DNA of 64,000 nucleotides from Candidatus Fervidibacter sinensis. GTDB taxonomy: Bacteria > Armatimonadota > Fervidibacteria > Fervidibacterales > Fervidibacteraceae. Shown here piece after piece: positions 277 through 63,448 of this stretch. Location of the stretch: the NCBI GenBank assembly GCA_032161045.1, contig JAVHTH010000010.1; one strand, written 5' to 3'. The translations under genes were made by a program, and so were the position numbers. Each line of letters opens with the position of its first letter. Position 1 is the first letter of the stretch. The notes below the pieces were generated by a model. It was not told the origin of the DNA. It saw only the letters and a program-made list of their open reading frames with translations, and made no database searches.

Positions 277-291
277 TGAACCCAAACCGTC

Positions 292-536
292 GTAGGGGCG
301 GATGAAATCCGCCCAAAAATTTCGGGCAGGTTACACCTGCCCCTACAAATCGTTGCAGGAGCGATGAAATCCGCCCGAAAATTTCGGGCAGGCTTCGCCT
401 GCCCCTACAAACCATCGTAGGGGGCGGATGAAATCCGCCCAAAAATTTCGGGCAGGCTTTGCCTGCCCCTACAAATCGTTGTAGGGGCGGATGAAATCCG
501 CCCAAAAAAATTCGGGTAGGCTTTGCCTGTCCCTAC
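292..536 (+). repeat. Tandem array of four REPIN-like double-hairpin units (family A)
   Basis: Units start at 292, 352, 417 and 481. Each is GTAG+GGGCGGAT-GAA-ATCCGCCC, then linker GAAAATTTC, then GGGCAGGC-TTC-GCCTGCCC+CTAC, i.e. two inverted GTAG-headed palindromes. Confidence 0.85.
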
Positions 537-562
537 AAATTCGTTCAAGGCAGGTGACACAA

Positions 563-15714: not shown

Positions 15715-17784
15715 CTACCTCAGCCTTGCAATCGTCGTTCCTTGAATTTTCCTTCCTTCATCATCTTGTGCAATTACTCGGACTAAGTATGCACTCGTTG
15801 GCAACACCTCTCCATTGTTCCCCAGACCTTGCCACACAATTTGTTGTTGACCTGCCAAGCGATTCCTACCGCTCTCTAACACCGCTACCTTCCTTCCAGT
15901 CAAGGTCAAAACCTCAACTTGAGTTTGTGCTGGTTTAGTCAATGCAAACTGGATTGATATGCCCCTTCCCCGCATCGGTATCGCCTTCAATCCAACAATG
16001 CGCAAAGGTCGCTCATTGCCCAACTCAGCGATAACCTTGAACCGCCTCTCCGTCTCACCTTCATTCGGCACAAACCGATATTCTGTCTGAGTCCTCATGT
16101 ATCGCCTCGTCCCTGTCGCAAGGTCAACCAAAATCAAACTCACATCCTTTGGAACATGTCCAACTCCATTCCATATCATCGTAACTTCTTTTTGCCTCGT
16201 CCCTCGTCCCCCCTCCCTCGTCCCGAACTTCACAACCACATCCCAAACATGCTGCCTTGCTGCGTTGTTCCTAACATCAACTGCCAAAGGTGCACCATTG
16301 TTGAGCACCAAAACTTGCACATTGCTGCTTCCTTCAGGCGGTTCAGGTGGCAAACCGATTGTAAGTCCTCTTGAACCTTGTGAAACTCCCCAAATTGCCT
16401 CTCCACTCTCGTCACCAACTTTCGCCACCAACTTCACTGTCCATCCATTGCCTTTCACTACTCGTCCCGCGTCCCTCGTCCCCCGTCCCTTGCTTTGGCT
16501 TGGTGGTGGCAGTATAAGTTCGCAGTCGGTATGAGCATAGACCCAATAGCCCTTCCAAGGTTCAAGTTGCCCTTTAACTCCAGGAATGACGCTTGTATCG
16601 TAGACCAGAACATACTTTCCCTTAAACGGGTCATTTTCATCCTGCTCCCATCCCCAAGCGTAATCTTCAATCCAGCCTGCCTGCTGGGCTTGTGCCACAC
16701 TTAACGACTGTTCGCCCTTCCTCACACGAATTCCTTGGCTAATGTCCCAATTAATTGGTTGGGTGAAGGGATTGCTAATAAAATTCCATCCCTTTTGCAA
16801 GGGGATAATGACTTCTTCAGCAAGAGGTTCGCCTACAAGGCTGAAAGGAATCTCTTTGTCCGCCTTAAACCAGTAGCCCTTTCCTGGCTCAATAGCAGCT
16901 CCAACATCTCGGTAACCTTGAATTGAGGGATCCCAAACTTTCATTAGTAGACCATCTAAACCGAGTTCTTGTCGCGTTAAGGATTCCGTTCTTAGGCTTA
17001 AGCCAAATGTTCCGATGCCTTGAGCAAGGCAAGGGACAAACGGTGAGACAGTGAAACTACGCTCTTCACTGCCTTCACTCCATTGTTTCCCATCGTGGGC
17101 ATAAACTTGCCACTTATACTCACCAGCAGATAAGGCGTAGTTCCCTGAAATCCTGAAGTTCGCTATTTCTCCGCTACTGTAACTGAGTTTACTCCAACCA
17201 CTAGTGTCCTTAGTTTGATCAAATTCGTGTATGATTTGTCCATTTCGCTTGATGACTAATTTGTATTTAATAGGATCGCCATCATTGTCAGTTGCTACCA
17301 TTCGGAAAGTTGGAGTGCCGGAGGTCATTGAATCAGGGGCAGGGGAAACTAGTTGTGGAAGCAACGGCGCTTGGTTAACGGTTATCATTCTTGCATTACT
17401 TGCTTCGCTCCATTCTTTCCCGTCAAAGGCGTAAGCAAGCCACAAGTAAGTCCCCGCTGTTAACCTCTGATTTGATGGAACAACAAATGTCGCTTCTTCT
17501 CCACTTGCATACTCACTCTTATCCCAACCTGTCCCCTCTTGTGTTTGGTCAAATACAGCAACAATTTGGTCGCCTTGCTTGACCACTATCTTGAACTTCA
17601 AGTTGTCACTATCAGGATCTGTTGACTTGATTTTGAATGAAAGGGTAGGAGTGACAAAGGAATTGTTTTCTGGAGCAACAAGTTCAGGGGCATTTGGAAC
17701 TTGGTTGACAACGAAACTCCTTTCACTACTGAATTCACTCTCTTGCCCCCTTTCATCTACCGCCTTCGCTCGCCATGTGTCCAT
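15715..17784 (-). CDS. C-terminal portion of the giant S8 protease (separated by a frameshift)
   Basis: Continues the NQxPNxPEL...GxYxWxxxAxD repeat domain that begins in the upstream ORF. C-terminal FlgD-Ig/T9SS-sorting-like beta domain. Carries two GGGACGN modules. Confidence 0.7.
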   Translation of the reverse strand: MDTWRAKAVDERGQESEFSSERSFVVNQVPNAPELVAPENNSFVTPTLSFKIKSTDPDSDNLKFKIVVKQGDQIVAVFDQTQEGTGWDKSEYASGEEATFVVPSNQRLTAGTYLWLAYAFDGKEWSEASNARMITVNQAPLLPQLVSPAPDSMTSGTPTFRMVATDNDGDPIKYKLVIKRNGQIIHEFDQTKDTSGWSKLSYSSGEIANFRISGNYALSAGEYKWQVYAHDGKQWSEGSEERSFTVSPFVPCLAQGIGTFGLSLRTESLTRQELGLDGLLMKVWDPSIQGYRDVGAAIEPGKGYWFKADKEIPFSLVGEPLAEEVIIPLQKGWNFISNPFTQPINWDISQGIRVRKGEQSLSVAQAQQAGWIEDYAWGWEQDENDPFKGKYVLVYDTSVIPGVKGQLEPWKGYWVYAHTDCELILPPPSQSKGRGTRDAGRVVKGNGWTVKLVAKVGDESGEAIWGVSQGSRGLTIGLPPEPPEGSSNVQVLVLNNGAPLAVDVRNNAARQHVWDVVVKFGTREGGRGTRQKEVTMIWNGVGHVPKDVSLILVDLATGTRRYMRTQTEYRFVPNEGETERRFKVIAELGNERPLRIVGLKAIPMRGRGISIQFALTKPAQTQVEVLTLTGRKVAVLESGRNRLAGQQQIVWQGLGNNGEVLPTSAYLVRVIAQDDEGRKIQGTTIARLR
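16197..16225 (-). repeat. (GGGACGN)4 module in frame in the protease gene (sense strand)
   Basis: Reverse complement reads GGGACGA GGGAGGG GGGACGA GGGACGA. Translated GTREGGRGTR. Confidence 0.85.
16461..16489 (-). repeat. (GGGACGN)4 module in frame in the protease gene (sense strand)
   Basis: Reverse complement reads GGGACGG GGGACGA GGGACGC GGGACGA. Translated GRGTRDAGR. Confidence 0.9.
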
Positions 17785-20700: not shown

Positions 20701-22718
20701 TCGCCTTCATCGTAAACAACCGTTACTCGGTAAAAGAGAACTAACTGGTTTGGAGGTAAATTGGAGTCAACATAAGATGTTTGATCGGAAGGAAGGCTTG
20801 CAATTAAGTCGTAAGGACCTTGGATTTGTGTTGCCCTGTAAACTCTGTAACCTTGCAAATCTAAAGGTCTAATAAGGGGCTGTCTGGAAGCAAGTCTTCG
20901 GAATCGGTTGTTGTTAAAAACGCTTCCCCACTGAAGCGTCACAGTGTTGTCATCAGAGTTATAAGTTGCAATTAGGTTGGGAACTGAGCGCAACTTTAAG
21001 GTGATGGTGTAATGTCTCATCTTGTTGTCAAATGCTTTGCTGGTCACTTTCAAGTAAAAATCACCCGAATTAGGCAGGACGAATTTAGGAATGAATGGGT
21101 CTTTGCTCCCGTTGTAATCGTCACTTTCTGCTAACACTGTTGAACCGTCGCTATCTAAAATCTGCAAAACAGCATCAATTCCGGAGCCCAATGCTTCGGC
21201 TTGAATTTTTACAGTGATGACCGTATTCTGAGTTGCGCTGAACTTGAATAAGTCTATATCCTCGTCAGGTTCAATCTTACCGAACAAAGTTTCTCCAAAA
21301 GCAATAAAAGTCGCCTGAACAGGAGTATCGTTGGGTTCGTTTTGGTCAGGAGCAAGAGGCAAAATGGATAGAAAAGCATCAATTCGCCCCCAGCCGTAGT
21401 CGTTATCAGGTCCTGGAGCACCCAAATCCACAGCAGAGTTTTTCAAAAGGTTCTTGATATTTTCCACAGTAAGTTCGGTGCCTTGTGCCCTTGCGAAAGA
21501 TTGAATAAGCGCTACTGTCCCCACAACATGTGGACACGCCATTGAAGTGCCACTCCAGTACTCGTAACCTCCCCCAGGCACAGATGAAAGCACAAAATCT
21601 CCTGGGGCTGAAACATCTGGCTTTATGATTTCACCAATGCCAGTCCAGAAGACGGGACCGCGGCTTGAAAAGTCTGCAATATTGTCATTGATATCTGTTG
21701 CCCCCACGCCAAACGCCATTGGGTAGTCGCCAGGGGAGTTCGTTGTTTGAGGAGCGGGGCCGTCATTTCCTATGGAAAAGGCAGGGAAAATGTTAGCAGC
21801 GATCCACGCATTGAGAGCATCTCGGAGGGAAGGATCCATGTCTGGAGAGTGGGAGCCAATATATCCCCATGAGTTGTTGACTACATCGGCGCCATCATCG
21901 GTAGAAGGATCACCATCAGGGTCAAGCATCCATTGCATACAAGCAAACATCCCTTCCTCCGTTGCCCCCTCATCTTCGTCAAACAATCGAGCAACAATTA
22001 AAGTTACCCCAGGAGCAACCCCTATATGTATTCCACTTGCGTTTCCACCAGCGATAGTTCCTGAAACATGTGTTCCATGTCCATGCCAATCAGAAGGTAA
22101 TGAACCTGGGTCGTAAGGGTCAAACCATCCATTTACAGGACGGAGTTTACCTGCTAAGTCAGGATGTGTGGGATCAATTCCTGTATCAATGACACCGACA
22201 GTCACATTGGCGCCTCTAACACCAAAAGTATTCCAAACCTCTGGGACGCGAATTTTTTCCAAACCCCATGTAAAAGCCTGTTGAGGTCTTATCCCTCTTT
22301 GACGGCGGATAGGCTGGATAAGTCTGACTGGTCGTACTTTCTCCACCCTTAATACGGACGGATCTCGTTTTAATGCTTCAATAACTTCTGAATCTGCCTT
22401 GACGGAGATGGCATTGACAATCCACAAAGACCTATATTGGTGGACTTTCCCTTCTTGCTGCCATTGCTGCAAGCGAGCAAGTATGGGGCGTTGGGTTCTC
22501 TGCGCTGTTTGCATTAACAACCTTTTGACTTCGGTTCGGTTACCTTTTACAGATAGGAGATTCGCTTTTTCCCGAAGGAACACAAGGTAAACAGTTTCTT
22601 GGGTCTGCGCCACCAACCCTGCCCATACGGCAATCACAGCTAGCAATAACCCAAGCGACAATACAACCACTGACCGCTTCTCTATTTTTCGTTCCCTCCT
22701 TATAAAGAAGCCGTTCAC
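17757..22718 (-). CDS. N-terminal portion of the giant secreted subtilisin-like (S8) protease with multiple PPC-type domains
   Basis: Catalytic D (VGVIDTGID), H (HGHGTHVSG) and S (SGTSMACPHV). I9-like propeptide. At least five EPND/DDH-type pre-peptidase C-terminal repeats. Start uncertain: GTG at 22718 gives a signal-anchor, while the ORF-track start is 22895. Confidence 0.8.
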   Translation of the reverse strand: MNGFFIRRERKIEKRSVVVLSLGLLLAVIAVWAGLVAQTQETVYLVFLREKANLLSVKGNRTEVKRLLMQTAQRTQRPILARLQQWQQEGKVHQYRSLWIVNAISVKADSEVIEALKRDPSVLRVEKVRPVRLIQPIRRQRGIRPQQAFTWGLEKIRVPEVWNTFGVRGANVTVGVIDTGIDPTHPDLAGKLRPVNGWFDPYDPGSLPSDWHGHGTHVSGTIAGGNASGIHIGVAPGVTLIVARLFDEDEGATEEGMFACMQWMLDPDGDPSTDDGADVVNNSWGYIGSHSPDMDPSLRDALNAWIAANIFPAFSIGNDGPAPQTTNSPGDYPMAFGVGATDINDNIADFSSRGPVFWTGIGEIIKPDVSAPGDFVLSSVPGGGYEYWSGTSMACPHVVGTVALIQSFARAQGTELTVENIKNLLKNSAVDLGAPGPDNDYGWGRIDAFLSILPLAPDQNEPNDTPVQATFIAFGETLFGKIEPDEDIDLFKFSATQNTVITVKIQAEALGSGIDAVLQILDSDGSTVLAESDDYNGSKDPFIPKFVLPNSGDFYLKVTSKAFDNKMRHYTITLKLRSVPNLIATYNSDDNTVTLQWGSVFNNNRFRRLASRQPLIRPLDLQGYRVYRATQIQGPYDLIASLPSDQTSYVDSNLPPNQLVLFYRVTVVYDEGESDPATVRVLADPTEPNDDPSTATPITYGESKQGTILVPGDVDFYKFDGQKDDLVTIRVRALSLGYPMDPVVTLYNSDGQTRLVVDWYADWDYWWYEWWESPVLRFPLPHDGTFYIKVEDYLGSGSENHFYTITLVKDSPDDHGDWTQTATPIAYGQNISGTINPPPDTDYFAFYAEQGDFIIAEVFAQRQGSPLDSMLALYDEQGNIIAFNDDYYGLDSYISYQITQSGRYFLRVIPYGGSNVGGPDFTYTLSLRKTLAEQEPNDTPAQATQIAYGDTILGEINPPDDLDFYKFSGQLGDYVAISVEAFDPWWQNPALTLYDSDGQIVLAYNDNFPDWLWWSNNPRIVRFPLPHDGDFYVKVEDVWGVTGNYMLTIVKDAPDDHSDWPQNATTIASGQTVDGVIDPQFDSDYFVFDSPAGYFATAEVIAQRQGSPLIAILALYDEQGQQLAWSQGWWGWDPYIDIQLPRTGRYYLRVMPSDWGSLGGPDCTYKIVLTLQPGPQISVTPIFVEQTLLQGTKVTTAMNVSNVGGRSLTFIARGATSALSTLRHQPVNRRVMVVPENSKLYQEYLRAKQKREQKALSFQNMTLRPSQGITDSKKQQEWQQVIQRLMSKPTPHSKRLAQLFQNAVKTPPPSQPVSRPIKQTKIAPFQFVPNSETDQSIELIPLKNGKPITTLQNGQPPTGTWRWIMVDPDEFNGNARNIRKVFFQSDGTYLYFRAELEGGEFNPDDTYLDIFLDTDRNAATGVGWRSGMGVDYILFGGMGTIGVYRYNPSTGNFDYAADFVWFKSVNGAVEVGVKLSDIGNPVDFHVACEFWDSSAGAFDAVPDIWYAPVIRGVPWLDHSPLAGSLLGGEGVDLALTLDATSLGLGNHKANLVFNSNDVEKPQVVTPITLTVTQVPNVPELLTPADEAIVRPQVTFTVKVSDPDGDKVKAVIEVKKGNMTATYETDFVDSGTDVSVTVDKPLESGQWTHGERRR

Positions 22719-22746
22719 ACGCTCCCATATACATAGCGTCCGAAAT

Positions 22747-22840
22747 GGTGAAAAGTTAAGGTGAAAAGTTAAGAGGTGGGGTGATTGATGTTCTAAACAT
22801 TGCAGAGTGGTCGTGACATAATAAGGGCAAAAAGTTAAGG
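22747..22840. promoter_or_regulatory. Triple direct repeat GGTGAAAAGTTAA in the divergent protease/sigma intergenic region
   Basis: Exact tandem 13-mers at 22747-22759 and 22760-22772, plus GGCAAAAAGTTAAGG at 22826-22840. Confidence 0.35.
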
Positions 22841-22920
22841 CGTATTTTGACCGCGAAGGGGAGATTTGAATATTGCGGTCACAAGCAAAGAGCACTTAAA
22901 AATACGGGTAATGACAAAGT

Positions 22921-36160: not shown

Positions 36161-36404
36161 AAAATAGGTGCGGAGTGCGGTGTGCGGAGTGCTGGGTTCT
36201 TCAGCAATTCGGCAAATGGGCAGGTCGGGTTAAAATGCACGCTTGCACTCCTGCAAGATTGCACGAAAAACGCGCAATGAATTTTTTCGGCTCACCAGAG
36301 GTTCGCCCTCCATGTGACTTCTACAAAGCCCAAATTTTCAATCTCGCACTTGAACATCCCCAAAAAATCTCCCGAAGCGCCAAACTTATTTGCGGTGTAA
36401 CGGG

Positions 36405-39400
36405 ATGAGGGAAACAATTCACGCTGTGGTAACTTTGGCTTTGACAGTTGCTGTTTTGATTTTCGCCAACTTCTGTGCGCGAGGTGAGGAAGAAATGGCT
36501 GCGTGGACGGCAAAGTGGATTTGGATTGGCGGAACACGGGATAAGGGACACGGGACGAGTGAGGATGGGTTGCCGAGAAATTTCTACCTTTGTGCCCGCA
36601 AGGTTTTTGATGTGCCAAAGGATTTGCAAGAGGCAATTTTGCGGATAACTGCCGATGCCCGTTATGTGCTTTTCGTCAATGGACAGCGCATTGGCAACGG
36701 TCCAATTCGTGGTTGGCAACATTCGTGGTTTTATGACACCTACGACTTGAAACCCCACTTGCGCCCCGGTGAGCGAAACGCTATCGGCGTTTTGGTTATC
36801 CAACCCGGCGAAACCAACTTCCAATACCCACTCGGTCGTGGTGGGTTGCTGGCGCAGTTGGATATGACCACGAAGCGAGGTCGCAAAATCACCGTCGCCA
36901 CCGACCGAACTTGGAAAGTCACTCCCCATCCCGCTTACGACCGACGGACACCACGAATTTCGTGTCAACAAGGGTTTGTGGAGCATTATGACGGGACGCG
37001 GGACGAGGGACGCGGGACGGAGGATTGGACAATGGCTGAGTTTGACGATAGCAAGTGGCAGAGGGCAGTTGAATTAGGTAAAGTCGGCATCGCACCTTGG
37101 AAAAAGTTAGTGCCACGCAACATACCGTTCTTGACAATGGAGCCAGTTTACCCTGTGCGAATTGTGCGAGTGCGAACGGTTGAGCCCCCAACCATCGTTC
37201 ACAGCATTGACCTTCGTCCCAACCTAAGCCCCGGTGACCGATTGTCCAACCCGCACGGCTTGACAGGCTTGGTGTTGACAGTTGTCCGTGCACCGAAACC
37301 GATGGAGGTTCGCGTGCGCGCTATAGGAGGCATCGGATTTGGTGCCCGCAGGGCAAAGGTCAACGGCGAAGACGCAACTTTTGATGAGCACGGCGCAATT
37401 CTGAAGTTGCGCAAGGGTGACAACTTGGTCGTCTTTGATGTGACGCGGGATTGGTATCACGATTGGTGGTTCACGACGGTTTGGGACGCGGGACGGGGGA
37501 CGAGGGACGGGTTAAAATTTGTCAATCCACTGGGGGAAGGTGAAACGGCGTGGGTGACGGCTGGTCCGTTTACTTCGCGCGATGACGAACTCTTCCAAGC
37601 AGTCTGGAACGCAAAATCTGTCACCGAAATTCGTGCCTTGCAGGCTAAATTCCGCACTCCGCACCCCATACTTCGCACAATCGCACTTGAGCATACTGCT
37701 TCCGACCATGTTTTTGCGAAAGTCGTGCTGGCGAAAGGGACGAAGGACGCGGGACGAGGGACGCGAGTTGAGAACTTGGAAGCGATTTGTCAGCCCAACG
37801 ATGAAGTTGCGGTCATTTATCCGCCACGAAAAGGCGATGTTGAGTTGCTTATTGACTTTGGGCGAGAACTCGTTGGATTTTGGGAATTTGAGGTTGATGC
37901 GCCTGCGGGGACAGTGCTTGATTTTTACGGCTTTGAAGCCATCCATCCAACCGATGACGGCGGTTTTGAAATCCAGCACACTTGGGGCTTGAACAATGTG
38001 ATGCGATACATCGCAAAGGAAGGTTGGCAGCGATACACAAGCATCGTTAGGCGTGGCTTCCGATACCTTGTGCTCACAATTCGGTTTGTAGGGGCGGGTG
38101 ATAACCCACCCGAAACTTACGGGCGGACTTCGTCCGCCCCTACAGGGCTATTTCAAAGGACAGGTGATGACCCGCCCGCAAAAACGGGCGAATTGGCATT
38201 CGCCCCTACGAAGTTGCGTCCCGTCCGCATCAAAACTTTGCGTTGCCTGTTGAACACTTACCCTTACACTGAGCGGGGCGAATTCATGTGCGACGATTGG
38301 AAACTCAACGAGATTTGGCGAATGTGCCGATACACGCTTCGGCTTTGCAGCGAGGACACTTTCGTTGACTGCCCAGCATACGAGCAAACTTTTTGGGTCG
38401 GCGATGCGCGAAACGAGGCACTCATCGCTTACGCGACTTATGGCGGTTACGAACTTGCAAGAAGGTGCTGGCTTTTGGCTGGTCAGTCTCTTTGGCGCTC
38501 GCCGCTTGTTGAAAGTCAAGTCCCAAGCGGTTGGCAAGACATCTTGACTGCATGGGCTTTGCTTTGGGTTTGGGCATGCGAGGAGTATTACCGCTATACA
38601 GGTGACGAGGGATTTTTGCGTGAGGTTTACCCGTTTGTTGCTCAGCAAATGCGCAACATCGCAGAAAAATTCATCCGACCCGACGGCTTATTTGAGATTG
38701 AAGCGTGGAATATGCTGGACTGGGCGCCAATGGACACGCCGCGAAAAGGCGTCGTCACACACCAAAATGCGATTCTCGTTGAAGCCTACAGGCGTGCTGC
38801 GACGATGGCACTTTGGTTGGGCAAGGGTGATGACGCAAAAGAGTTTGAGGCGTTGGCGCAAAAGGTTGAAGATGCAATCAATGAACACCTGTGGGATGAA
38901 CAACGGCAGGCTTTTATTGACGCCATCCACGCTGACGGTCGCCGAAGCCAAGTTTTCAGCGTCCAGACACAAACGATGGTTTACCTTTGCGATGCGGTGA
39001 CTGACGAACGCCGACCAATCATTCGCCAATACCTTTACGACAAGCCAGAAGGGTTCGTTTGGTTTGGAAGTCCGTTTGCGCTTTTCTTCCTGCTTGAAGC
39101 CTACGCAAAAGACGGCGAGTTTCAGCGCATCTTGGACATCATTCGGCGCGAGTGGGGTGCAATGATTGACTACGGCGCGACGACAGCGTGGGAAACTTTG
39201 ACGCCACGAACGAGAAGCCACTGCCACGCGTGGAGCGCAGCACCTGCTTACTTCTTGAGCACTTATGTGCTTGGCGTGAGACCAAAGGGCGTAACACGGG
39301 ACAAGGTGCAAGGGACACGGGTGATGGAATACTTCATTGCGCCAAAGCCTTGCGATTTGAAGTGGGCAAAAGGAAGATTCCCAACACCAAGCGGGACGCG

Positions 39401-39674
39401 GGACGAGGGGCATGGGACGAGAAGAGAAAAAGATTTTGCCGAGCCAAGAGAAATTGAGGTTCGTTGGGAGCGAGATGAGCGAAGGTTTACCCTTTGGTTT
39501 GCGTTGCCTAACGCTGTCAAGGCGGAAATTGTCTTACCACCTATCGTGCCTGAGGGCGCAATCGTTGATGTCAAACTTATCAAGGGCGAAGCGACTAAGC
39601 CGAAGTTTGAAGTTAACCATTGGCGCATCAGTGTGAGTGAAGGAACTCAGGGGAAAGTTGAGGCAAGTTGGTGA
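36405..39674 (+). CDS. GH78-like alpha-L-rhamnosidase family six-hairpin glycosidase carrying multiple in-frame repeat insertions
   Basis: AKWIWIGG N-terminal motif, FVDCPAYEQTFWVGDA and TTAWETL...HCHAWSAAP motifs. ATG at 36405 gives a signal peptide. Confidence 0.7.
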   Translation: MRETIHAVVTLALTVAVLIFANFCARGEEEMAAWTAKWIWIGGTRDKGHGTSEDGLPRNFYLCARKVFDVPKDLQEAILRITADARYVLFVNGQRIGNGPIRGWQHSWFYDTYDLKPHLRPGERNAIGVLVIQPGETNFQYPLGRGGLLAQLDMTTKRGRKITVATDRTWKVTPHPAYDRRTPRISCQQGFVEHYDGTRDEGRGTEDWTMAEFDDSKWQRAVELGKVGIAPWKKLVPRNIPFLTMEPVYPVRIVRVRTVEPPTIVHSIDLRPNLSPGDRLSNPHGLTGLVLTVVRAPKPMEVRVRAIGGIGFGARRAKVNGEDATFDEHGAILKLRKGDNLVVFDVTRDWYHDWWFTTVWDAGRGTRDGLKFVNPLGEGETAWVTAGPFTSRDDELFQAVWNAKSVTEIRALQAKFRTPHPILRTIALEHTASDHVFAKVVLAKGTKDAGRGTRVENLEAICQPNDEVAVIYPPRKGDVELLIDFGRELVGFWEFEVDAPAGTVLDFYGFEAIHPTDDGGFEIQHTWGLNNVMRYIAKEGWQRYTSIVRRGFRYLVLTIRFVGAGDNPPETYGRTSSAPTGLFQRTGDDPPAKTGELAFAPTKLRPVRIKTLRCLLNTYPYTERGEFMCDDWKLNEIWRMCRYTLRLCSEDTFVDCPAYEQTFWVGDARNEALIAYATYGGYELARRCWLLAGQSLWRSPLVESQVPSGWQDILTAWALLWVWACEEYYRYTGDEGFLREVYPFVAQQMRNIAEKFIRPDGLFEIEAWNMLDWAPMDTPRKGVVTHQNAILVEAYRRAATMALWLGKGDDAKEFEALAQKVEDAINEHLWDEQRQAFIDAIHADGRRSQVFSVQTQTMVYLCDAVTDERRPIIRQYLYDKPEGFVWFGSPFALFFLLEAYAKDGEFQRILDIIRREWGAMIDYGATTAWETLTPRTRSHCHAWSAAPAYFLSTYVLGVRPKGVTRDKVQGTRVMEYFIAPKPCDLKWAKGRFPTPSGTRDEGHGTRREKDFAEPREIEVRWERDERRFTLWFALPNAVKAEIVLPPIVPEGAIVDVKLIKGEATKPKFEVNHWRISVSEGTQGKVEASW
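36534..36558 (+). repeat. Decayed GGGACGN-heptad module (in register)
   Basis: GGAACAC GGGATAA GGGACAC GGGACGA. Translated GTRDKGHGTS. Confidence 0.6.
36993..37020 (+). repeat. Perfect (GGGACGN)4 module
   Basis: GGGACGC GGGACGA GGGACGC GGGACGG. Translated GTRDEGRGT. Confidence 0.9.
37483..37511 (+). repeat. Perfect (GGGACGN)4 module
   Basis: GGGACGC GGGACGG GGGACGA GGGACGG. Translated DAGRGTRDG. Confidence 0.9.
37737..37765 (+). repeat. (GGGACGN)4 module with one G-to-A change
   Basis: GGGACGA AGGACGC GGGACGA GGGACGC. Translated GTKDAGRGTR. Confidence 0.85.
38088..38209 (+). repeat. GTAG-headed REPIN-like element(s) lying in frame inside the GH78-like CDS
   Basis: GTAGGGGCGGGTG...GGGCGGAC-TTC-GTCCGCCCCTAC (38088-38143), then ...CGCCCG-caaaaa-CGGGCG and GGGCGAAT-TGGC-ATTCGCCCCTAC (to 38209). 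Translated FVGAGDNPPETYGRTSSAPTGLFQRTGDDPPAKTGELAFAPT. Confidence 0.8.
39298..39325 (+). repeat. Decayed GGGACGN-heptad module (in register)
   Basis: GGGACAA GGTGCAA GGGACAC GGGTGAT. Translated TRDKVQGTRV. Confidence 0.55.
39393..39419 (+). repeat. (GGGACGN)4 module with one altered unit
   Basis: GGGACGC GGGACGA GGGGCAT GGGACGA. Translated GTRDEGHGTR. Confidence 0.85.
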
Positions 39675-39724: not shown

Positions 39725-39910
39725 GTAGGGTCGGGCTGCTGTCTGACCGAAAAAATTGGCTGAATGTAGGGCGCGGTTTTACACCGCGCCGAAAAATTTG
39801 TCGGCAGGGTATAAAACCCTGCCCTACAAGGGAAATTTGGCTCAATGTAGGGCGCGGTTTCACACCGCGCCGAAAAAATTTTGTCGGCAGGGTATAAAAT
39901 CCTGCCCTAC
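39725..39910 (+). repeat. Array of variant REPIN units (family A2), 81-nt period
   Basis: Full units at 39766-39827 and 39847-39910: GTAG+GGCGCGGT-loop-ACCGCGCC, linker GAAAAATTTGTC, GGCAGGGT-ATAAA-ACCCTGCC+CTAC. Partial unit at 39725-39765. Confidence 0.8.
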
Positions 39911-39967
39911 AGGTGACGGTTAAGGCGGAGGTTCCTGCAAGCGATTTTGACCCTACTGCGCTAACCT

Positions 39968-58101: not shown

Positions 58102-58731
58102 TTGCCGAAAGCCCTTAGTGGTTGGAAAGCGCGGCGTTACGCTGTAGCCCTTTTAAATGCTGCTGTCAAAGTGAACGAGTTGGAACGGGTTGAAGCAGAA
58201 GTCAGTGCTTTGGCGGAAATGCTTAACCGTTCGCCACAACTGGTCAAGTTTCTCGCGCAACCGTTGGTTCCTTTTAGCGAAAAGGCTCAAAGGTTAAAGC
58301 AGCGTTTGGAAGGGCAACTCTCTCCTGTCACGCTCAACTTTTTGCTCACCGTCGTCAAACACAAACGCATTGAAGCATTTGAACATATAGCCCGAGTTTT
58401 CACTGAGTTGGTGCGAGAGTATCGCGGCGAGGTGGTTGCCGAAGTCGTAAGCGCTGTCCCGCTGACCGATGAGGAGCGGGAAATGACCGTTCAACGCTTG
58501 CAAGAGATAACGGGCAAAAAAGTTTTGCTCAGCGAAAAAGTTGACCCGTCCATCATTGGTGGGATGCGCATCGTTGTCGGCGACAAACTTTTGGATTTGA
58601 GTTTGAAGGGATATTTGGAACGAATTCGCGAGAGGCTGCGACAAGTTTTCATTGCCACTGAAGTTTCCTTACCGGAAAATGATGAAGGAACTGGACAAAC
58701 TCTGGAGGTGACTGAAAGTGATTCGCGCTGA
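58102..58731 (+). CDS. atpH: F1 ATP synthase subunit delta (OSCP)
   Basis: Position and size, [18 protein letters not shown]-terminal motif. TTG start after AGGAGGG. Confidence 0.85.
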
Positions 58732-60310
58732 GGAAATCACCAGCGTGCTGATGCAGGAACTTGAGGGGATTGAAAAAGTCGTTGAGATGACCGACATAGG
58801 CTATGTCATTGAGGTCGGGGACGGCGTAGCGCGCGCTTACGGCTTACAAGGTGCGATGGCGAGCGAATTGCTCTACTTCCCGCAAGCAAGCGAAAGGTTG
58901 GGGCGTGAATTTTACGGCATCGCCTTCAACTTGGAGATGGACAGTGTTGGAATTATTTTGCTCGGTCCAGATCAATTTGTTCGCGAAGGTGATGAAGTCC
59001 GATGCACAGGGCGAGTCGTGGAAGTTCCCGTCGGCAAGGAATTGCTTGGTCGCGTCGTTAACCCTGTTGGTCAACCTTTGGATGGGAAAGGTCCTATCAC
59101 GGCAAAGGAATTTCGCCGCATTGAAGTCAAAGCGCCCGGCGTCGTTAAGAGACGCCCTGTCAACCAGCCCGTCATGACCGGTCTAAAAGCGATTGATTCC
59201 ATGATCCCAATCGGCAGAGGACAGCGCGAGTTAATCTTGGGCGACCGGCAAACGGGCAAAACAGCCATAATCGTTGACACCATCATCAACCAGAAGCGAT
59301 TCCATGAAGCGGGCGACCCAGTTTACTGCATCTATGTAGCCATCGGGCAAAAGCAAAGCACTGTCAAGAGCGTTGTGGAAACTTTAGAGCGCTACGGAGC
59401 AATGGAATACACAATCGTCGTTTCCGCACCAGCAAGCGAACCCGCATCACTGCAATACATTGCCCCTTACGCCGGTTGCGCGATGGGTGAGTGGTTCCGC
59501 GATAACGGGATGCACGCTGTCATCTTCTACGATGACTTGAGCAAGCACGCACAGGCGTATCGTCAAGTTTCGCTCCTTCTGCGCCGACCGCCGGGGCGAG
59601 AGGCGTATCCCGGTGATGTTTTCAACTTGCACTCACGACTTTTAGAGCGTGCTGCAAAGTTGAGTGACGAATTGGGAGGCGGTTCGCTCACAGCAATTCC
59701 CGTCATTGAAACCCAACTTGGCGACTACAGCGCTTATATCCCGACCAATGTCATCAGCATCACCGACGGACAGATTTACCTTGAGCCCGATTTGTTCTAC
59801 GCAGGAATTCGCCCAGCCATCAATGTCGGTATTAGTGTCTCGCGCGTTGGCAGCGCCGCTCAATACCCTGCGATGAAAAAAGTCGCACGAAGGCTCAAGT
59901 TGGATATGGCGCGATACTTTGAGTTAGCGGCGTTCGCACAATTTGCTGCCGAGTTAGATGAAGTGACGAGGCGCGAATTGATCCGAGGCGAACGGCTCGT
60001 TGAAGTGCTCAAGCAGGACCAGTATCAGCCAATGGCACTTTGGGAGCAAGTTCTCATCATCTTCGCGGGCATCAACGGCTACTTGGACGACATGCCTGCT
60101 GAATGGGTGCGACCATTTGAGAAAGAGTTCTTGCCTTGGGTTAAAGAGCGCTACCCAGAAATTGTCCACGAGATTGAAACGACCAAAGACTTCTCCGCCG
60201 AAACTGAGCAAAAGATGCACAAGGCTGTTCAGGAGTTCAAAGAGCGCTTCATCGCCGCCCGCAGGGAAGTAGAAGCACAGCAGCCTGCCGAACTCGCAGT
60301 CGCATCGTAA
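58718..60310 (+). CDS. atpA: F1 ATP synthase subunit alpha
   Basis: GDRQTGKT Walker A, and [11 protein letters not shown] and ITDGQI motifs. Confidence 0.95.
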
Positions 60311-60349
60311 AGAGTAGAGCGATTGTCAATTTGCTCGGCGGTGAAGCGA

Positions 60350-60733
60350 ATGGATAGTGAAATCCAGCAAGCGTTAGCGAAGTCGGAAAAACTTTTGCGA
60401 GTGGCTGAGTGGGCGGTTGAGCAAGAACTTTACGATGGCGCTGCCTTATGCTGCTATGCAGCGCTCTTTTGGGCAACCATAGCCGCATTGGCACATCAAG
60501 GGTTTAAGCAAGAGGAATGGGCACATGGCGGTTTAAGAAAAGTCTTCAGGGACGAACTTGTCCGTAAGCGAAGACTATATCCGCCAATTTTCGTTGAGTG
60601 GTTGGAAAGAGCATATGCTCTGAGGGACAAGGCTCACTACGAGTTAGAGCCACCGGGCGCAAAAGAAACACGCCGCATAATTTACCATGCCCGTGAGTTC
60701 GTCGCAAAGGTCCAAGAGGTGACAAAGCAATGA
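60350..60733 (+). CDS. HEPN-domain protein
   Basis: Helical protein with YDGAALCCYAALFWA and LRDKAHYE motifs resembling HEPN. Inserted between atpA and atpG. Confidence 0.6.
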   Translation: MDSEIQQALAKSEKLLRVAEWAVEQELYDGAALCCYAALFWATIAALAHQGFKQEEWAHGGLRKVFRDELVRKRRLYPPIFVEWLERAYALRDKAHYELEPPGAKETRRIIYHAREFVAKVQEVTKQ

Positions 60734-61029
60734 GGAAACCTATGTCGCCTGCTAAGCGCTACTCAAAACGGCGTTTGGAACGGTTCGTGTGGGAACTGGC
60801 ATCGTTAGCAAAAGACCTTTGCCCCGAGGCAGAGATAAAGGTCAGAATTCCCGGCTACGAGGAATTAGACGCTTGGATTGAAGTCATTGTCCCTGACGAA
60901 ATGGTTGAAGAGGTCAGTGACCGCTTGTATGCGCGGGCATCGCAAATTTTTGACGAGGAAAACTACTGGATTGGCATCCATGTCGTTGAACGCTCTTTGA
61001 GGCAGAAGGAGAAGCAGCAAGCGGAGTGA
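60730..61029 (+). CDS. Small protein translationally coupled to the HEPN gene (possible cognate partner)
   Basis: ATGA overlap with the HEPN gene. No canonical GSx10DxD NTase motif seen. Confidence 0.45.
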   Translation: MRKPMSPAKRYSKRRLERFVWELASLAKDLCPEAEIKVRIPGYEELDAWIEVIVPDEMVEEVSDRLYARASQIFDEENYWIGIHVVERSLRQKEKQQAE

Positions 61030-61035
61030 TTGAAG

Positions 61036-61926
61036 ATGGCGGTACAAAGTTTGAGGGCAATTAGGCGCAAAATTCGGGCTGTGCGAAACTTGCAAAAAAT
61101 CATGACGGCGATGAAGATGGTGGCGGCGGCAAGATTGCGCCGCGTTCAAGACAGAGTGGTCGCCGGCAAACCTTATACCGAAAAGATGCGCTGGCTCGTT
61201 GAAACCCTTGCACCACATTTGCCCGCTATTGAACACCCGCTTTTGCAAGTTCGTCCCGTCCAAAAGCGAGGTTTGGTCGTAATCACAGGGGACAAAGGTT
61301 TGTGTGGGGCTTACAACAACAACATCATTCGCGCCGCTCAAAATTTCATGAGCCAAGATAGTGCGGCACCGTTTTTGCTTTACTGCATTGGACGAAAAGG
61401 TTACGACTTCTTCTCCCGTCGCGGCTATCAAGTCGCTCGCCATCGCCCTCAATTACCGGTCACCGCTTCCTTTGCACAGTTTAAAGCCGTCGCTGAAGAT
61501 ATTGTTCAATGGTTCACGAGCGGCGAGGTTGACGAAATTTTTGTCGCTTACGGAGAATTTGTGAACGCTTTAGTGCAGCGTCCCAAGATTATCCCGCTTC
61601 TGCCAATCAAAACGGACGGGACAGGGCATGAAGGACGGGGGACGAGAGAGACAGAGAGGGAATACATCTTTGAGCCGAAAGCGCCTGAACTGTTGGCGTT
61701 GTTGCTGCCGCGATATGTTGAGCATCTGGTTTACCACATTTTGCTTGAAAGCCTTGCCAGTGAGAACGCCGCCCGGATGAACGCGATGAGTCAAGCAGCC
61801 GATAACGCCGAGGAACTAATCAAGCAACTAACTTTGCAAGCCAACAAAATCCGTCAGTGGAACATCACGAAAGAGTTGCTTGAAATCACGACGGCTGTGG
61901 AAGCGATGAGACGGGCAAGAGATTGA
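61036..61926 (+). CDS. atpG: F1 ATP synthase subunit gamma
   Basis: MAVQSLRAIRRKIRAVRNLQKIMTAMKMVAAA N-terminus and NITKELLEI C-terminus. Confidence 0.95.
   Translation: MAVQSLRAIRRKIRAVRNLQKIMTAMKMVAAARLRRVQDRVVAGKPYTEKMRWLVETLAPHLPAIEHPLLQVRPVQKRGLVVITGDKGLCGAYNNNIIRAAQNFMSQDSAAPFLLYCIGRKGYDFFSRRGYQVARHRPQLPVTASFAQFKAVAEDIVQWFTSGEVDEIFVAYGEFVNALVQRPKIIPLLPIKTDGTGHEGRGTRETEREYIFEPKAPELLALLLPRYVEHLVYHILLESLASENAARMNAMSQAADNAEELIKQLTLQANKIRQWNITKELLEITTAVEAMRRARD
61618..61646 (+). repeat. Partly decayed GGGACGN-heptad module in frame in atpG
   Basis: GGGACAG GGCATGA AGGACGG GGGACGA. Translated GTGHEGRGTR, in the loop between LLPI and YIFEP. Confidence 0.65.
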
Positions 61927-62005
61927 GGTCTTCTCCCTTGACAAAATGTAGCGTTGACTAAAAGCCGGACCTAAAGGATTTGTCTTCGTGGCGAGGTGGT
62001 TTGGG

Positions 62006-63448
62006 ATGAAGCGAAGGGAATTCGTGCAGCAGGTTGTTGTGGGAGGCGTTTGCGTAGTCGGCTTGGCAAGCGGAAACTCGGATGCATCACAAAGGAGGTT
62101 GAGGAGGGTGGGCAGCAAACTACCTCGCTTGAAAGTTTTTGACGACCCTAAACATCCAAACAACCGCCGCTTCCTCGTCACAGAAGAAGGTCAACCCTTC
62201 TTCTACCTCGGCGACACCGCTTGGGAACTATTTCACAGGCTAACTCGCGAAGAAGCGGAAACTTACCTTCGCGACCGCGCTCAAAAAGGCTTCACTGTCA
62301 TTCAAGCAGTAGTTCTTGCTGAGTTTGACGGTCTTAACACCCCGAACGCCTATGGTCACAGACCTTTGCACAACAACGACCCAACTCAGCCAAACGAGGC
62401 TTATTTTGAGTTTGTTGACTGGGTGGTAGAGAAAGCGAACGAGATGGGGCTTTATGTTGGGATGCTTCCGACATGGGGTGACAAAGTGAACAAGAAGTGG
62501 GGGGTAGGACCTGAGGTTTTCACGCCTGAAAACGCGAAAGTTTACGGTGAGTTTTTGGGGCGAAGGTATCGTGGAAGGGGCATCATTTGGATTTTGGGAG
62601 GGGACAGACCGATTGAGAGTGAAGTTCACCTAAAGATTTGGCGTGCTATGGCGGAGGGTTTGAGGAGGGAGGATGAGGGAGAGCATCTAATCACCTACCA
62701 TCCGATGGGAGGTCAATCGTCATCGCAGTGGCTTCACAATGAGCCTTGGTTGGACTTCAACATGTTGCAGTCGGGACATCATGCAAGGCACATCGCAAAC
62801 TATGCGATGATTGAGCGAGACTACAACCTAAAGCCTGTCAAACCATGCATGGACGGGGAGGCACGCTATGAGGACCATCCGATCAATTGGGATCCGAGGA
62901 ACGGATGGTTTAACGATTACGATGTTCGTCAAGCGGCGTATTGGGCGTTACTTGCGGGTGCTCACGGACACACTTACGGTTGCCACGACATATGGCAGTT
63001 TTACGACCCAGAGAAGCGACAACCGATTTCTCATGCGAGGACTCCTTGGCAAAAGGCGTTGCATTTGCCCGGTGCATCTCAGGTCAGGCACGCAAAGGCT
63101 TTGATGCTTTCACGACCGATGTTGCTTCGGATTCCAGACCAAACTTTGCTTGCATCAGATCCCGGAACAGGTGCAGAACATGTTCGCGCAGCAAGGGCAA
63201 TTGACGGAAGTTACGCCTTCGTTTACATCCCGGTCCCAAAGCCGGTTAAAGTTCGGCTTGACAAGTTGTCAGGGAGGGAGGTTCGTGCATGGTGGTATGA
63301 CCCGAGGTTGGGAGGGGCTAAGTTGATTGGGGAGTTTAGGCGAGAGGGGGAGCGAGAGTTTAAGCCTGAAGGTTCTGGGGAAGTTGACTGGGTTTTGGTC
63401 CTTGACGATGCAAGCAAGGATTTTCCGCCGCCGGGAAAAGTCAGTTAG
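62006..63448 (+). CDS. GH140/DUF4038-like glycoside hydrolase
   Basis: [16 protein letters not shown] and GFTVIQ motifs. KRREFV twin-arginine-like N-terminus if ATG at 62006 is used. Confidence 0.7.

What the first reader, a model, noticed from the sequence alone, without database searches (positions are those of the whole stretch)
61618..61646. The same heptad module sits in a loop of ATP synthase gamma
- atpG reads GGGACAG GGCATGA AGGACGG GGGACGA in heptad register and encodes GTGHEGRGTR.
- The segment lies between the conserved LLPI and YIFEP motifs, a region that varies in length and sequence among gamma subunits.
- Finding the element in an essential, highly expressed housekeeping gene argues against a peculiarity of secreted glycosidases.
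- This copy is partly decayed: only three G3 tracts are intact. It may therefore be a relic.
Basis: partly seen in the sequence, partly recalled or inferred. Interest (0 to 1): 0.7.

Follow-up and report, generated by a model that had tools for sequence, protein, structure and literature searches.

The report
Decayed G-rich heptamer repeat inside atpG
A 28-base G-rich repeat, (GGGACGN)x4, that is scattered through genes of the hot-spring bacterium Fervidibacter also sits, half decayed, in a floppy surface loop of the ATP synthase gamma subunit. This shows it is a DNA-level repeat element read through as protein, not a feature of secreted enzymes.

Summary
Window 61618-61645 reads GGGACAG GGCATGA AGGACGG GGGACGA. 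It lies in atpG (61036-61926, +), codons 195-204 (GTGHEGRGTR), between LLPI and YIFEP. It matches (GGGACGN)4 at 20 of 24 positions, a score never reached in 200 dinucleotide shuffles.

Eight other four-unit copies lie in the window: six in a GH78 rhamnosidase and two in a large secreted protein.

Relatives settle the identity:
- A 97%-identical AtpG carries GGGACGG GGGACGG GGGACGC GAGACGA at the same codons.
- Other lineages carry three perfect units, or a GGGACA version.
- Some Fervidibacter lineages carry none.

The element is defined at the DNA level:
- It occurs antisense in other genes, where it reads PRPSSxxPR.
- Intact copies follow the heptad far beyond codon usage.
- Synonymous sites inside the modules are conserved (77% against 45%).

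It is best filed as a lineage-specific G-rich heptamer simple-sequence repeat of the G-quadruplex-motif kind. That kind is known from Xanthomonas and Nostoc and also prefers four units. Here, however, the repeat is embedded in frame in coding loops.

The window's atpG copy has lost the fourth G3 tract and is a relic in a disordered loop (pLDDT below 50). How the modules arise and are maintained is inferred, not shown.

The parts
61036..61926 (+). atpG, the F1 ATP synthase gamma subunit (296 aa) and host gene of the module.
   Evidence: Pfam PF00231 scores 5.6e-93. It is 100% identical to the gamma subunit of 'Candidatus Fervidibacteria bacterium JGI MDM2 JNZ-1'. PDB gamma chains match at 1e-63.
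61618..61645 (+). Decayed (GGGACGN)4 module: GGGACAG GGCATGA AGGACGG GGGACGA. With 61646-61647 it encodes GTGHEGRGTR (residues 195-204).
   Evidence: It scores 20/24 against the consensus, never reached in 200 shuffles. Orthologous, more intact modules occur in relatives. It coincides with the only AlphaFold2 segment of pLDDT <50, residues 195-206. No G4 is predicted.
36405..39674 (+). GH78 alpha-L-rhamnosidase gene carrying six modules.
   Evidence: Pfam Bac_rhamnosid6H scores 2.4e-53. The protein is 1089 aa, against 964 aa for orthologues without modules.
36531..36558 (+). Module GGAACAC GGGATAA GGGACAC GGGACGA (peptide GTRDKGHGTS), partly decayed.
   Evidence: It is an insertion relative to distant orthologues.
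36993..37020 (+). Intact module GGGACGC GGGACGA GGGACGC GGGACGG (peptide GTRDEGRGT).
   Evidence: It scores 24/24. The synonymous-codon control gives P<0.0001. A G4 appears in the predicted minimum-energy fold at 37 C.
37483..37510 (+). Intact module GGGACGC GGGACGG GGGACGA GGGACGG, read in a different frame (peptide DAGRGTRDG).
   Evidence: It scores 24/24. In orthologue L200 all four GGGACG cores are unchanged while three of the four N7 bases differ.
37737..37764 (+). Module GGGACGA AGGACGC GGGACGA GGGACGC (peptide GTKDAGRGTR).
   Evidence: It scores 23/24. The codon control gives P=0.0003.
39291..39318 (+). Decayed module GTAACAC GGGACAA GGTGCAA GGGACAC (peptide VTRDKVQGTR).
   Evidence: Orthologue L200 has the intact GGGACGA GGGACGC GGGACGG GGGACGG at this place.
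39393..39420 (+). Module GGGACGC GGGACGA GGGGCAT GGGACGA (peptide GTRDEGHGTR).
   Evidence: It scores 22/24. The codon control gives P=0.003.
15715..17784 (-). A 689-aa ORF with a FlgD_ig-like C-terminal domain, probably a secreted or surface protein, carrying two modules.
16462..16489 (-). Intact module on the minus (sense) strand: GGGACGG GGGACGA GGGACGC GGGACGA (peptide GRGTRDAGR).
   Evidence: It scores 24/24.
16197..16224 (-). Module on the minus (sense) strand: GGGACGA GGGAGGG GGGACGA GGGACGA (peptide GTREGGRGTR).
   Evidence: It scores 23/24. The codon control gives P=0.0001.

Best explanation
The segment is one copy, now eroded, of a dispersed Fervidibacter-lineage DNA repeat. The repeat is four tandem G-rich heptamers, GGG(A/g)C(G/a)(A/C/G), about 28 nt long.

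It belongs to the class of G-rich heptameric simple-sequence repeats whose four G3 tracts make a minimal G-quadruplex motif. In this lineage the repeat sits inside genes. Because three heptamers equal seven codons and none of the three frames contains a stop, the ribosome simply reads through it. On the sense strand it reads as a hydrophilic Gly/Thr/Arg/Asp loop. On the antisense strand it reads as a Pro/Ser/Arg loop.

What is shown:
- The atpG copy is orthologous to more intact copies in relatives.
- It lies in the one disordered, indel-tolerant surface loop of gamma.
- The family is defined by nucleotides rather than by the peptide.
- Modules persist, with conserved synonymous sites, across lineages whose other synonymous sites are nearly saturated. 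Yet they change faster than neutral sites between very close relatives.

What is inferred:
- Modules arise and are kept alike by repeat-type processes: replication slippage or template switching on GGGAC-like seeds, and conversion between units or copies. G-quadruplex formation on the non-template strand or in the mRNA possibly favours these processes.
- Only in-frame outcomes in permissive loops survive.
- In atpG the module has no role in the enzyme. In this genome it has lost the fourth G3 tract and is drifting as a neutral relic.

The stated confidence applies to the identity of the segment (a decayed, orthologously inherited member of a DNA-level heptamer repeat family). The origin and maintenance mechanism on its own would rate about 0.4.
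For: Family and statistics:
- GGGN4GGGN4GGG occurs 11 times against 0.41 expected, and every occurrence is in a GGGACGN module.
- The atpG site scores 20/24, never reached in 200 shuffles.

Orthology:
- Relatives have the heptads at the same codons. L002: GGGACGG GGGACGG GGGACGC GAGACGA. L011: GGGACGA x3. L010: GGGGCAG GGGACAC GGGACAA GGGACAC GGGAGGC. L204: GGGACAG GGGAAGA GGGACGG GGGAAAA GGGAAAG.
- L018-L022 and L206 have no heptads.

DNA-level nature:
- Antisense copies are read as PVPRPSSPVPR, SRPTPRVPS and PRPSSLAPRP in real genes.
- Codon choice in intact modules follows the heptad with P<=0.003.
- Four-fold third positions are 77% identical inside modules against 45% outside (p=0.0008), and 74% against 46% (p=0.002), between GH78 orthologues.
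- Window against L204 atpG: the module is 24/30 identical with 6/6 four-fold sites, against 42% outside.

Turnover:
- Window against L002: the module is 22/30 identical, against 97.2% outside. P=0.004 even against the four-fold-site rate.

Insertions in loops:
- All six GH78 modules are gains of 3-24 aa relative to orthologues of <=62% identity.
- The atpG module coincides with the pLDDT<50 segment 195-206.

G4 motif:
- Four of the seven copies that keep four or more G3 tracts (three of five in the window, one of two among the relatives' atpG copies) have a G4 in the predicted minimum-energy fold at 37 C; the window atpG copy does not.

Precedent:
- GGGAATC and GGGGAYT heptamer repeats with a preference for four units and convergent pairs are described in PMC4692102.
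- A convergent pair was also seen here, at L200 7463-7539.
Against: - Given its peptide, the window's atpG copy is only marginally heptad-like (P=0.06).
- The loop is not clearly longer than in Fervidibacter lineages without the module (15-17 aa against 18), so 'insertion' is not demonstrated for atpG itself.
- The G4 role is weak. A4, C5 and G6 are about as conserved as the G tract, with C5 at 98%, and a quadruplex does not require that.
- Several atpG lineages keep only three G3 tracts.
- ViennaRNA predicts no G4 at 80 C, near the organism's growth range. Its G4 parameters are crude.
- The seventh base differs between neighbouring units. Simple slippage would homogenise it.
- Only about 64 kb plus fragments of these genomes were examined.
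Confidence: 0.75

Rival explanations
1. Active, sequence-specific installation. A dedicated process writes or refreshes a fixed four-unit cassette in transcribed genes, so the modules behave like a tiny mobile element rather than a passively born microsatellite. Candidate processes are gene conversion from other copies, template switching at quadruplex-stalled forks, or an enzyme recognising GGGACG.
For: - Unit number is fixed at four in 9/9 window modules.
- The same core appears at many unrelated sites.
- Modules cluster within a gene: 6-7 in GH78, 3 in the neighbouring GH20 of L200, 2 in L148.
- The core is conserved while N7 varies.
- L002's atpG copy is closer to the consensus than the window and L204 copies, although L002 is otherwise 97% identical to the window.
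Against: - There are no target-site duplications, terminal repeats or associated gene.
- Net length gains (15-27 nt) are irregular.
- G>A at position 6 recurs in parallel, so shared states need not mean conversion.
- Composition-matched control heptamers are as common as GGGACGN in a large unrelated collection: 36 stretches against 91 and 37. No universal GGGACG-specific machinery is therefore implied.
Confidence: 0.2
2. Functional RNA or DNA quadruplex. The modules are selected because a G4 in the mRNA or on the non-template strand modulates translation speed at loop or domain boundaries, transcription, or mRNA stability at high temperature.
For: - Four G3 tracts are the rule.
- There is a sense-strand bias, about 15 of 18 independent loci (p=0.004).
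- Synonymous sites are conserved.
- A G4 is predicted for four of the seven copies that keep four or more G3 tracts at 37 C.
- Related heptamers form G4 in vitro (PMC4692102).
Against: - The non-G positions are equally conserved.
- Antisense copies exist.
- The atpG copies of the window, L002 and L011 have lost the fourth tract without consequence.
- No G4 is predicted at 80 C.
- The sense bias can equally come from which peptide is tolerated.
Confidence: 0.12
3. Protein-level motif. GT(R)D(E)GRGTR is a selected peptide, for example a charged flexible linker useful at high temperature, and the heptad is a by-product of its codons.
For: - Seven of nine window modules start in the same reading frame (p about 0.02).
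- The peptide is hydrophilic and sits in loops.
- For the atpG copy the heptad score is largely explained by the peptide (P=0.06).
Against: - Two window modules use other frames.
- Antisense copies encode an unrelated Pro/Ser/Arg peptide.
- Codon choice is heptad-locked.
- The atpG loop peptide varies freely among close relatives: GTGHEGRGTR, GTGDGGRETK, GAGDTGQGT, EAEGEGRRTE.
Confidence: 0.05
4. Chance. The segment is a G-rich run of Gly/Arg codons in a variable loop that happens to resemble the heptad.
For: The synonymous-codon control for this copy alone is not significant (P=0.06).
Against: - The score was never reached in 200 shuffles.
- Relatives carry near-perfect heptads in the same register at the same codons.
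Confidence: 0.02
5. Contingency locus. Changes in heptamer copy number switch the gene on and off by frameshifting (phase variation).
For: Seven is not a multiple of three, and the module changes fast between close relatives.
Against: - atpG is essential.
- All 26 relatives examined (L001-L024, L204, L206) are in frame, and their loop lengths differ by whole codons.
- There are only four units, in mid-gene, and up to seven modules per gene.
Confidence: 0.02

Closest known systems
G-rich heptameric, quadruplex-forming simple-sequence repeats of Xanthomonas (GGGAATC) and Nostoc (GGGGA(C/T)T), described by Rehm et al. 2015, PLoS One, PMC4692102.
   Same: - Seven-base unit made of a G3 tract plus a four-base spacer.
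- Lineage-specific motif, dispersed in many copies.
- Marked preference for exactly four units, which is a minimal G4 motif.
- Some copies occur as close convergent inverted pairs (seen here once, L200 7463-7539).
- Length and sequence turn over rapidly between close relatives.
- Function is unknown.
   Different: - Those repeats are 89-93% intergenic and under-represented on the coding strand. The Fervidibacter modules seen here are all inside ORFs, mostly on the coding strand, and are translated.
- The core is different (GGGACG).
- The host is a hyperthermophile.
- G4 formation has not been measured for this motif.
Rickettsia palindromic elements (RPEs): selfish repeats inserted in frame into unrelated genes, including housekeeping genes (review PMC10969869).
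   Same: - A repeated DNA element is found inside many unrelated ORFs.
- It is read through as an extra peptide segment.
- It is compatible with fold and function, so presumably on the surface.
- It is present in essential metabolic genes.
   Different: - RPEs are about 150 bp long, palindromic and MITE-like, and encode a conserved peptide in one orientation.
- The module here is 28 nt long, a direct tandem repeat without inverted termini.
- It occurs in both orientations.
- It shows no sign of transposition.
The regulatory insertion of chloroplast and cyanobacterial ATP synthase gamma. Its position in the sequence is recalled from general knowledge. Only the break in the alignment was observed here.
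   Same: It occupies the same inter-motif loop, after LLP(I/L) and before the (Y/F)xFEP motif. The alignment to chloroplast gamma (6fkf_g, 22vl_D) stops at query residue about 195. This shows that the loop tolerates insertions.
   Different: The chloroplast segment is roughly 35-40 aa long, structured, and carries the redox cysteines. The Fervidibacter segment is 10 aa long, is predicted to be disordered, has no Cys, and is not conserved as a peptide.
Phase-variable (contingency) simple-sequence repeats of pathogens.
   Same: A short tandem repeat inside an ORF, with a locally raised mutation rate.
   Different: There are only four units, no frameshifted alleles, the host gene is essential, and there are several modules per gene.

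Membership tests
G-rich heptameric G4-motif simple-sequence repeats (Rehm et al. 2015 type) | Tandem seven-base unit made of a G3 tract plus a four-base spacer. | tested here: met
   124 units were tabulated. G1, G2 and G3 are 94-97% G, and the spacer is A/g-C-G/a-V. The atpG copy scores 20/24.
G-rich heptameric G4-motif simple-sequence repeats (Rehm et al. 2015 type) | Preference for four units. | tested here: met
   All nine window modules have four units. Relatives have four to six.
G-rich heptameric G4-motif simple-sequence repeats (Rehm et al. 2015 type) | Four intact G3 tracts able to fold into a quadruplex. | tested here: inconclusive
   ViennaRNA with G4 energies at 37 C puts a G4 in the minimum-energy fold of four of the seven copies that keep four or more G3 tracts (GH78_2, GH78_3, 16462-16489 and L010; not GH78_6, 16197-16224 as three-tetrad, or L204 untested). 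No three-tetrad G4 is predicted for the window's atpG copy, L002 or L011, which have three G runs. No G4 is predicted at 80 C. Biophysical proof cannot be obtained here.
G-rich heptameric G4-motif simple-sequence repeats (Rehm et al. 2015 type) | Many dispersed copies with lineage-specific enrichment of one motif. | tested here: met
   Copies were found in at least seven unrelated genes on different contigs of Fervidibacter. GGGN4GGGN4GGG occurs 11 times against 0.41 expected in the window, all of the GGGACGN type. GGGACGN is not privileged in an unrelated collection. No whole-genome count was possible.
G-rich heptameric G4-motif simple-sequence repeats (Rehm et al. 2015 type) | Mostly intergenic, under-represented on the coding strand. 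This is a descriptive property of the published cases. | tested here: not met
   All of about 18 independent loci are inside ORFs, and about 15 of them are on the coding strand. For this reason it is called a new variant.
In-frame selfish repeats of the RPE/MITE type | Terminal inverted repeats or palindromic structure, a length of 100-150 bp, and target-site duplication. | tested here: not met
   The module is 28 nt of direct repeats, and its flanks show no duplication.
In-frame selfish repeats of the RPE/MITE type | Inserted in frame in unrelated genes, including housekeeping genes, at surface positions. | tested here: met
   Hosts are atpG, GH78, GH20, a thioredoxin-domain protein and others. 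The GH78 modules are gains relative to orthologues. The atpG module lies in a loop of pLDDT <50.
Phase-variation contingency repeat | Unit-number polymorphism that shifts the reading frame between close strains. | tested here: not met
   All 26 relatives examined (L001-L024, L204, L206) are in frame, and their loop lengths differ by whole codons.
F1 ATP synthase gamma subunit (PF00231), the host gene | Full-length match to the family profile and to solved gamma chains. | tested here: met
   PF00231 covers profile positions 1-285 of 285 at 5.6e-93. 2qe7_G matches at 1.3e-63. The AlphaFold2 model has mean pLDDT 86.

The most novel reading that the evidence does not exclude
The (GGGACGN)4 cassette is not a passive microsatellite. 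It is actively written into, and maintained within, transcribed genes of a hyperthermophile. Two routes are possible: a quadruplex- or sequence-specific conversion process, or selection for a heat-stable RNA/DNA structure embedded in ORFs. Either would make it a new class of intragenic 'structural punctuation' or a minimal mobile repeat that even an essential gene such as atpG has to carry. The evidence consistent with this is the conservation of synonymous sites inside modules, the fixed unit number, and the combination of fast turnover with long persistence.
Probability: 0.18. Interest if true: 0.8.

Novelty: new variant of a known kind. Interest (0 to 1): 0.5.

Why it matters
G-rich heptamer repeats with a four-unit preference are known but unexplained. 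In the described cases they avoid coding DNA.

Fervidibacter grows at 65-87.5 C (PMC11535203). Here the same kind of repeat is tolerated, and apparently maintained at synonymous sites, inside ORFs, including an essential ATP synthase subunit.

This gives three things:
- A natural experiment on how non-B-DNA repeats and coding constraints coexist.
- A source of lineage-specific loop insertions that lengthen thermophilic enzymes. The GH78 is about 12% longer than orthologues without modules.
- A practical warning for enzyme engineers and annotators. These 7-12 residue Gly/Thr/Arg/Asp (or Pro/Ser/Arg) loops are repeat-derived and probably dispensable.

The atpG copy itself is chiefly useful as a dated, orthologous series that shows birth, persistence and decay of one module.

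Tried and rejected
- Exact heptad strings in the literature: no paper holds them.
- Rfam scan of the window: no RNA family matched.
- The idea that GGGACGN is a universal, cross-phylum element. The genome scan found more than 119 stretches in many phyla, which suggested this. Composition-matched controls in viral contigs were as frequent or more frequent (36 against 91 and 37). The cross-phylum hits are therefore read as the general abundance of heptamer repeats.
- The idea that the atpG neighbourhood is module-rich. Only the atpG copy occurs within +-6 kb in 20 or more relatives.
- A clean 'window and L204 share the ancestral state, L002 was converted' argument. It was abandoned because G>A at position 6 is the commonest parallel change.
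- A seed hypothesis, in which TGG-GAC (Trp-Asp) or GGGAACG pre-exists at insertion sites. It looks plausible for GH78 module 3 and for L018 atpG, but it could not be tested without DNA from orthologues that predate the modules.
- ViennaRNA G4 prediction at 80 C gave no structure for any sequence. This was judged uninformative because of the crude parameters.
Full report
**Organism and gene.** The window comes from a Candidatus Fervidibacter (Armatimonadota). Its AtpG is 100% identical to that of 'Candidatus Fervidibacteria bacterium JGI MDM2 JNZ-1', and the next relatives are Fervidibacter MAGs. atpG runs from 61036 to 61926 on the plus strand; homologues start at MAVQSL, and the ORF listing extends the frame to a TTG at 61030.

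**Checking the observation.**
- Bases 61618-61645 read GGGACAG GGCATGA AGGACGG GGGACGA. Codons 195-204 encode GTGHEGRGTR, between LLPI and YIFEP.
- Against (GGGACGN)4 the site scores 20 of 24. Only other modules score higher, and the best unrelated site in the window scores 17.
- In 200 dinucleotide-preserving shuffles the maximum was 19, reached once.
Intact modules give P between <0.0001 and 0.003.
- The family therefore has a clear nucleotide-level signature, but the atpG copy alone does not prove one.

**The family in the window.**
- GGGN4GGGN4GGG occurs 11 times against 0.41 expected, always in GGGACGN arrays.
- There are nine modules, each of four units:
  - six in a GH78 alpha-L-rhamnosidase (36405-39674);
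  - two in a 689-aa ORF with a FlgD_ig-like C-terminus (15715-17784, minus strand; the modules are G-rich on the minus strand, so they are sense);
  - one in atpG.
- All nine are on the coding strand and encode cyclic permutations of GTRD(E/A/G)GR. Seven of the nine start in the GGG-ACG frame.

**Relatives of atpG.** Loci came from a metagenome scan and from contig look-ups.

| Locus | AtpG identity to window | Sequence at the same codons |
|---|---|---|
| L002 | 97% | GGGACGG GGGACGG GGGACGC GAGACGA (23/24) |
| L011 | about 90% | GGTGCGA GGGACGA GGGACGA GGGACGA |
| L015 | not stated | GGTGCAA GGGACGA GGGGCGA GGGACGG |
| L010, L013, L014 | not stated | GGGGCAG GGGACAC GGGACAA GGGACAC GGGAGGC |
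| L204 | 82% | GGGACAG GGGAAGA GGGACGG GGGAAAA GGGAAAG |

- L018-L022 (83-87% identity) and L206 show no heptads. Their loops are 12-17 aa long, against 18 here.
- In a neighbour-joining tree built without the loop, the module-bearing sequences form a clade. A short-loop pair (P0020, P0021) is nested inside it, which suggests deletion. P0019 (L204) falls outside it.
- The module is therefore old. Either it was lost several times, or the tree is imperfect, or atpG recombined. I could not decide between these.
- A distant relative in Abditibacteriales has GRGT in the loop, but with only one GGGACG and no periodicity.

**Tempo of change.**
- Window against L002: 97.2% nucleotide identity outside the module (91% at four-fold sites), but only 22/30 inside. 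P=0.004 even against the four-fold-site rate.
- Window against L204: 74% identity outside (42% at four-fold sites), but 24/30 inside, with 6/6 four-fold sites identical (P=0.005).
- Independent assemblies confirm both variants. L001 equals the window, and P0002 and P0004 match L002.
- Fast change combined with long persistence is typical of repeats. It is not typical of an ordinary constrained or unconstrained loop.

**A DNA element, not a peptide.**
- In other Fervidibacter contigs the module occurs antisense inside real genes:
  - a 795-aa thioredoxin-domain protein reads FPPVPRPSSPVPRKEE (L095);
  - a GH20 gene reads GTGDEGRGTR, then 22 nt later SRPTPRVPS, a convergent inverted pair (L200);
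  - another ORF reads STPRPSSLAPRP (L202).
- Across about 18 independent loci, 15 are sense (p=0.004). This is a bias, not a rule.
- In GH78, every module is a gain of 3-24 aa relative to orthologues of <=62% identity (964 aa against 1089 aa). Intermediate lineages lack particular modules.
- Between GH78 orthologues whose four-fold sites are only 45-46% identical, four-fold sites inside modules are 77% and 74% identical (p=0.0008 and 0.002).
- In GH78 module 3 (37483-37510), all four GGGACG cores are unchanged between the window and L200, while three of the four seventh bases differ.
- Over 124 units, conservation by position is G1 96%, G2 97%, G3 94%, A4 87%, C5 98%, G6 76%. The seventh base is A, C or G and almost never T.
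- The commonest departure is G>A at position 6. It dominates whole lineages, as in the GGGACA modules of L202 and L010.

**Structure of the host protein.**
- AlphaFold2 with the 39-sequence alignment gives mean pLDDT 86. The only segment below 50 is residues 195-206, which is exactly the module. It lies between strand 181-189 and the C-terminal helix 216-295.
- Solved bacterial gamma subunits align with a 5-6 residue gap there. Chloroplast gamma aligns only up to residue about 195. This fits my recollection that the chloroplast regulatory insertion occupies this loop.
- The module peptide varies freely among close relatives, so it has no evident role in the enzyme.

**Quadruplex potential.**
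- ViennaRNA with G4 energies, at 37 C, puts a G4 in the minimum-energy fold for GH78_2, GH78_3, 16462-16489, 16197-16224 and the atpG copies of L002 (a two-tetrad G4) and L010.
- It does not do so for GH78_1, GH78_4, GH78_5 or GH78_6, for the window's atpG copy (three G runs), or for L011.
- At 80 C it predicts nothing for any sequence. I treat this as uninformative.

**Comparison with what is known.**
- The closest described thing is the G-rich heptamer repeat family of Xanthomonas (GGGAATC) and Nostoc (GGGGAYT). [quoted passage not shown] Their function is unknown. They are 89-93% intergenic and under-represented on the coding strand (PMC4692102).
- The Fervidibacter modules share the architecture and the four-unit rule, but they live in ORFs.
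- Functionally they resemble the in-frame Rickettsia palindromic elements (PMC10969869). They share none of the structural hallmarks of those elements.
- A scan of 185,579 species genomes found (GGGACGN)3GGG in more than 119 stretches from many phyla. Composition-matched control heptamers are equally or more common in viral contigs.
- The motif is therefore not universal machinery. The enrichment is specific to the lineage.

**Verdict.**
- The atpG segment is an eroded, orthologously inherited copy of a lineage-specific (GGGACGN)4 repeat. It is read through as a disordered loop.
- How the modules arise and why they persist remains inferred. The candidates are slippage or conversion, possibly driven by quadruplexes, against selection for a structure.

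Noticed in passing
window 60323-61029: A HEPN-domain gene (60323-60733; Pfam HEPN 7.4e-06) and an overlapping 99-aa ORF (60730-61029) lie between atpA (58718-60310) and atpG. Together they look like a toxin-antitoxin pair. In L204 and L205, atpG follows atpA directly.
   Followed up: partly
window 61988-63448: atpG is followed by a GH140-like apiosidase gene (Pfam Apiosidase 2e-130 plus Collagen_bind_2), not by atpD. In L205 atpD follows atpG directly; in L204 a DUF433 gene intervenes. The ATP synthase operon is interrupted in this lineage.
   Followed up: partly
window 283-545 and 39752-39911: There are tandem 64-nt (4.1 copies) and 81-nt (2 copies) intergenic repeats. Each holds two GC-rich hairpins flanked by GTAGGG...CCCTAC. 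They look like REP/BIME-type elements.
   Followed up: no
window 36168-36192: A different heptamer array, (GTGCGGA)x3.6, lies in the intergenic region just upstream of the module-rich GH78 gene.
   Followed up: no
L200 7463-7539: Two modules lie in convergent orientation 22 nt apart inside a GH20 gene. They are read as GTGDEGRGTR...SRPTPRVPS. Xanthomonas heptamer repeats also form such convergent pairs, which could make a hairpin or cruciform.
   Followed up: partly
L202 (GH78 orthologue) and L010/L013/L014 (atpG): Whole lineages carry GGGACA instead of GGGACG in most units of unlinked modules. G>A at position 6 accounts for 29 of 66 departures from the core. This suggests CpG-type deamination, possibly at a methylated GGGACG/CGTCCC site, or lineage-wide conversion.
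   Followed up: partly
P0025 (AtpG of another Fervidibacter lineage): The same gamma loop holds another short repeat, TDKTDKTD, so this loop collects simple repeats of more than one kind.
   Followed up: no
one search hit list (GH78 orthologues): The orthologues without modules at 58-60% identity (964 aa) include sequences labelled Brockarchaeota, Jordarchaeales and Thermoprotei. This suggests inter-domain transfer of this GH78 among hot-spring organisms.
   Followed up: no
L122, L126, L175, L149 (genome-contig hits): Long (GGGACGT)n arrays of 9-28 units occur in Victivallales, Gemmatimonadales and Myxococcota MAGs. Many four-unit GGGACGN arrays occur in Gemmatimonadales and Streptomyces. Their coding status was judged only crudely.
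   Followed up: partly
window 15715-22895, minus strand: The 689-aa module-bearing ORF overlaps the end of a 1712-aa ORF (17757-22895) on the same strand. The two may be parts of one very large surface protein or adjacent genes.
   Followed up: no
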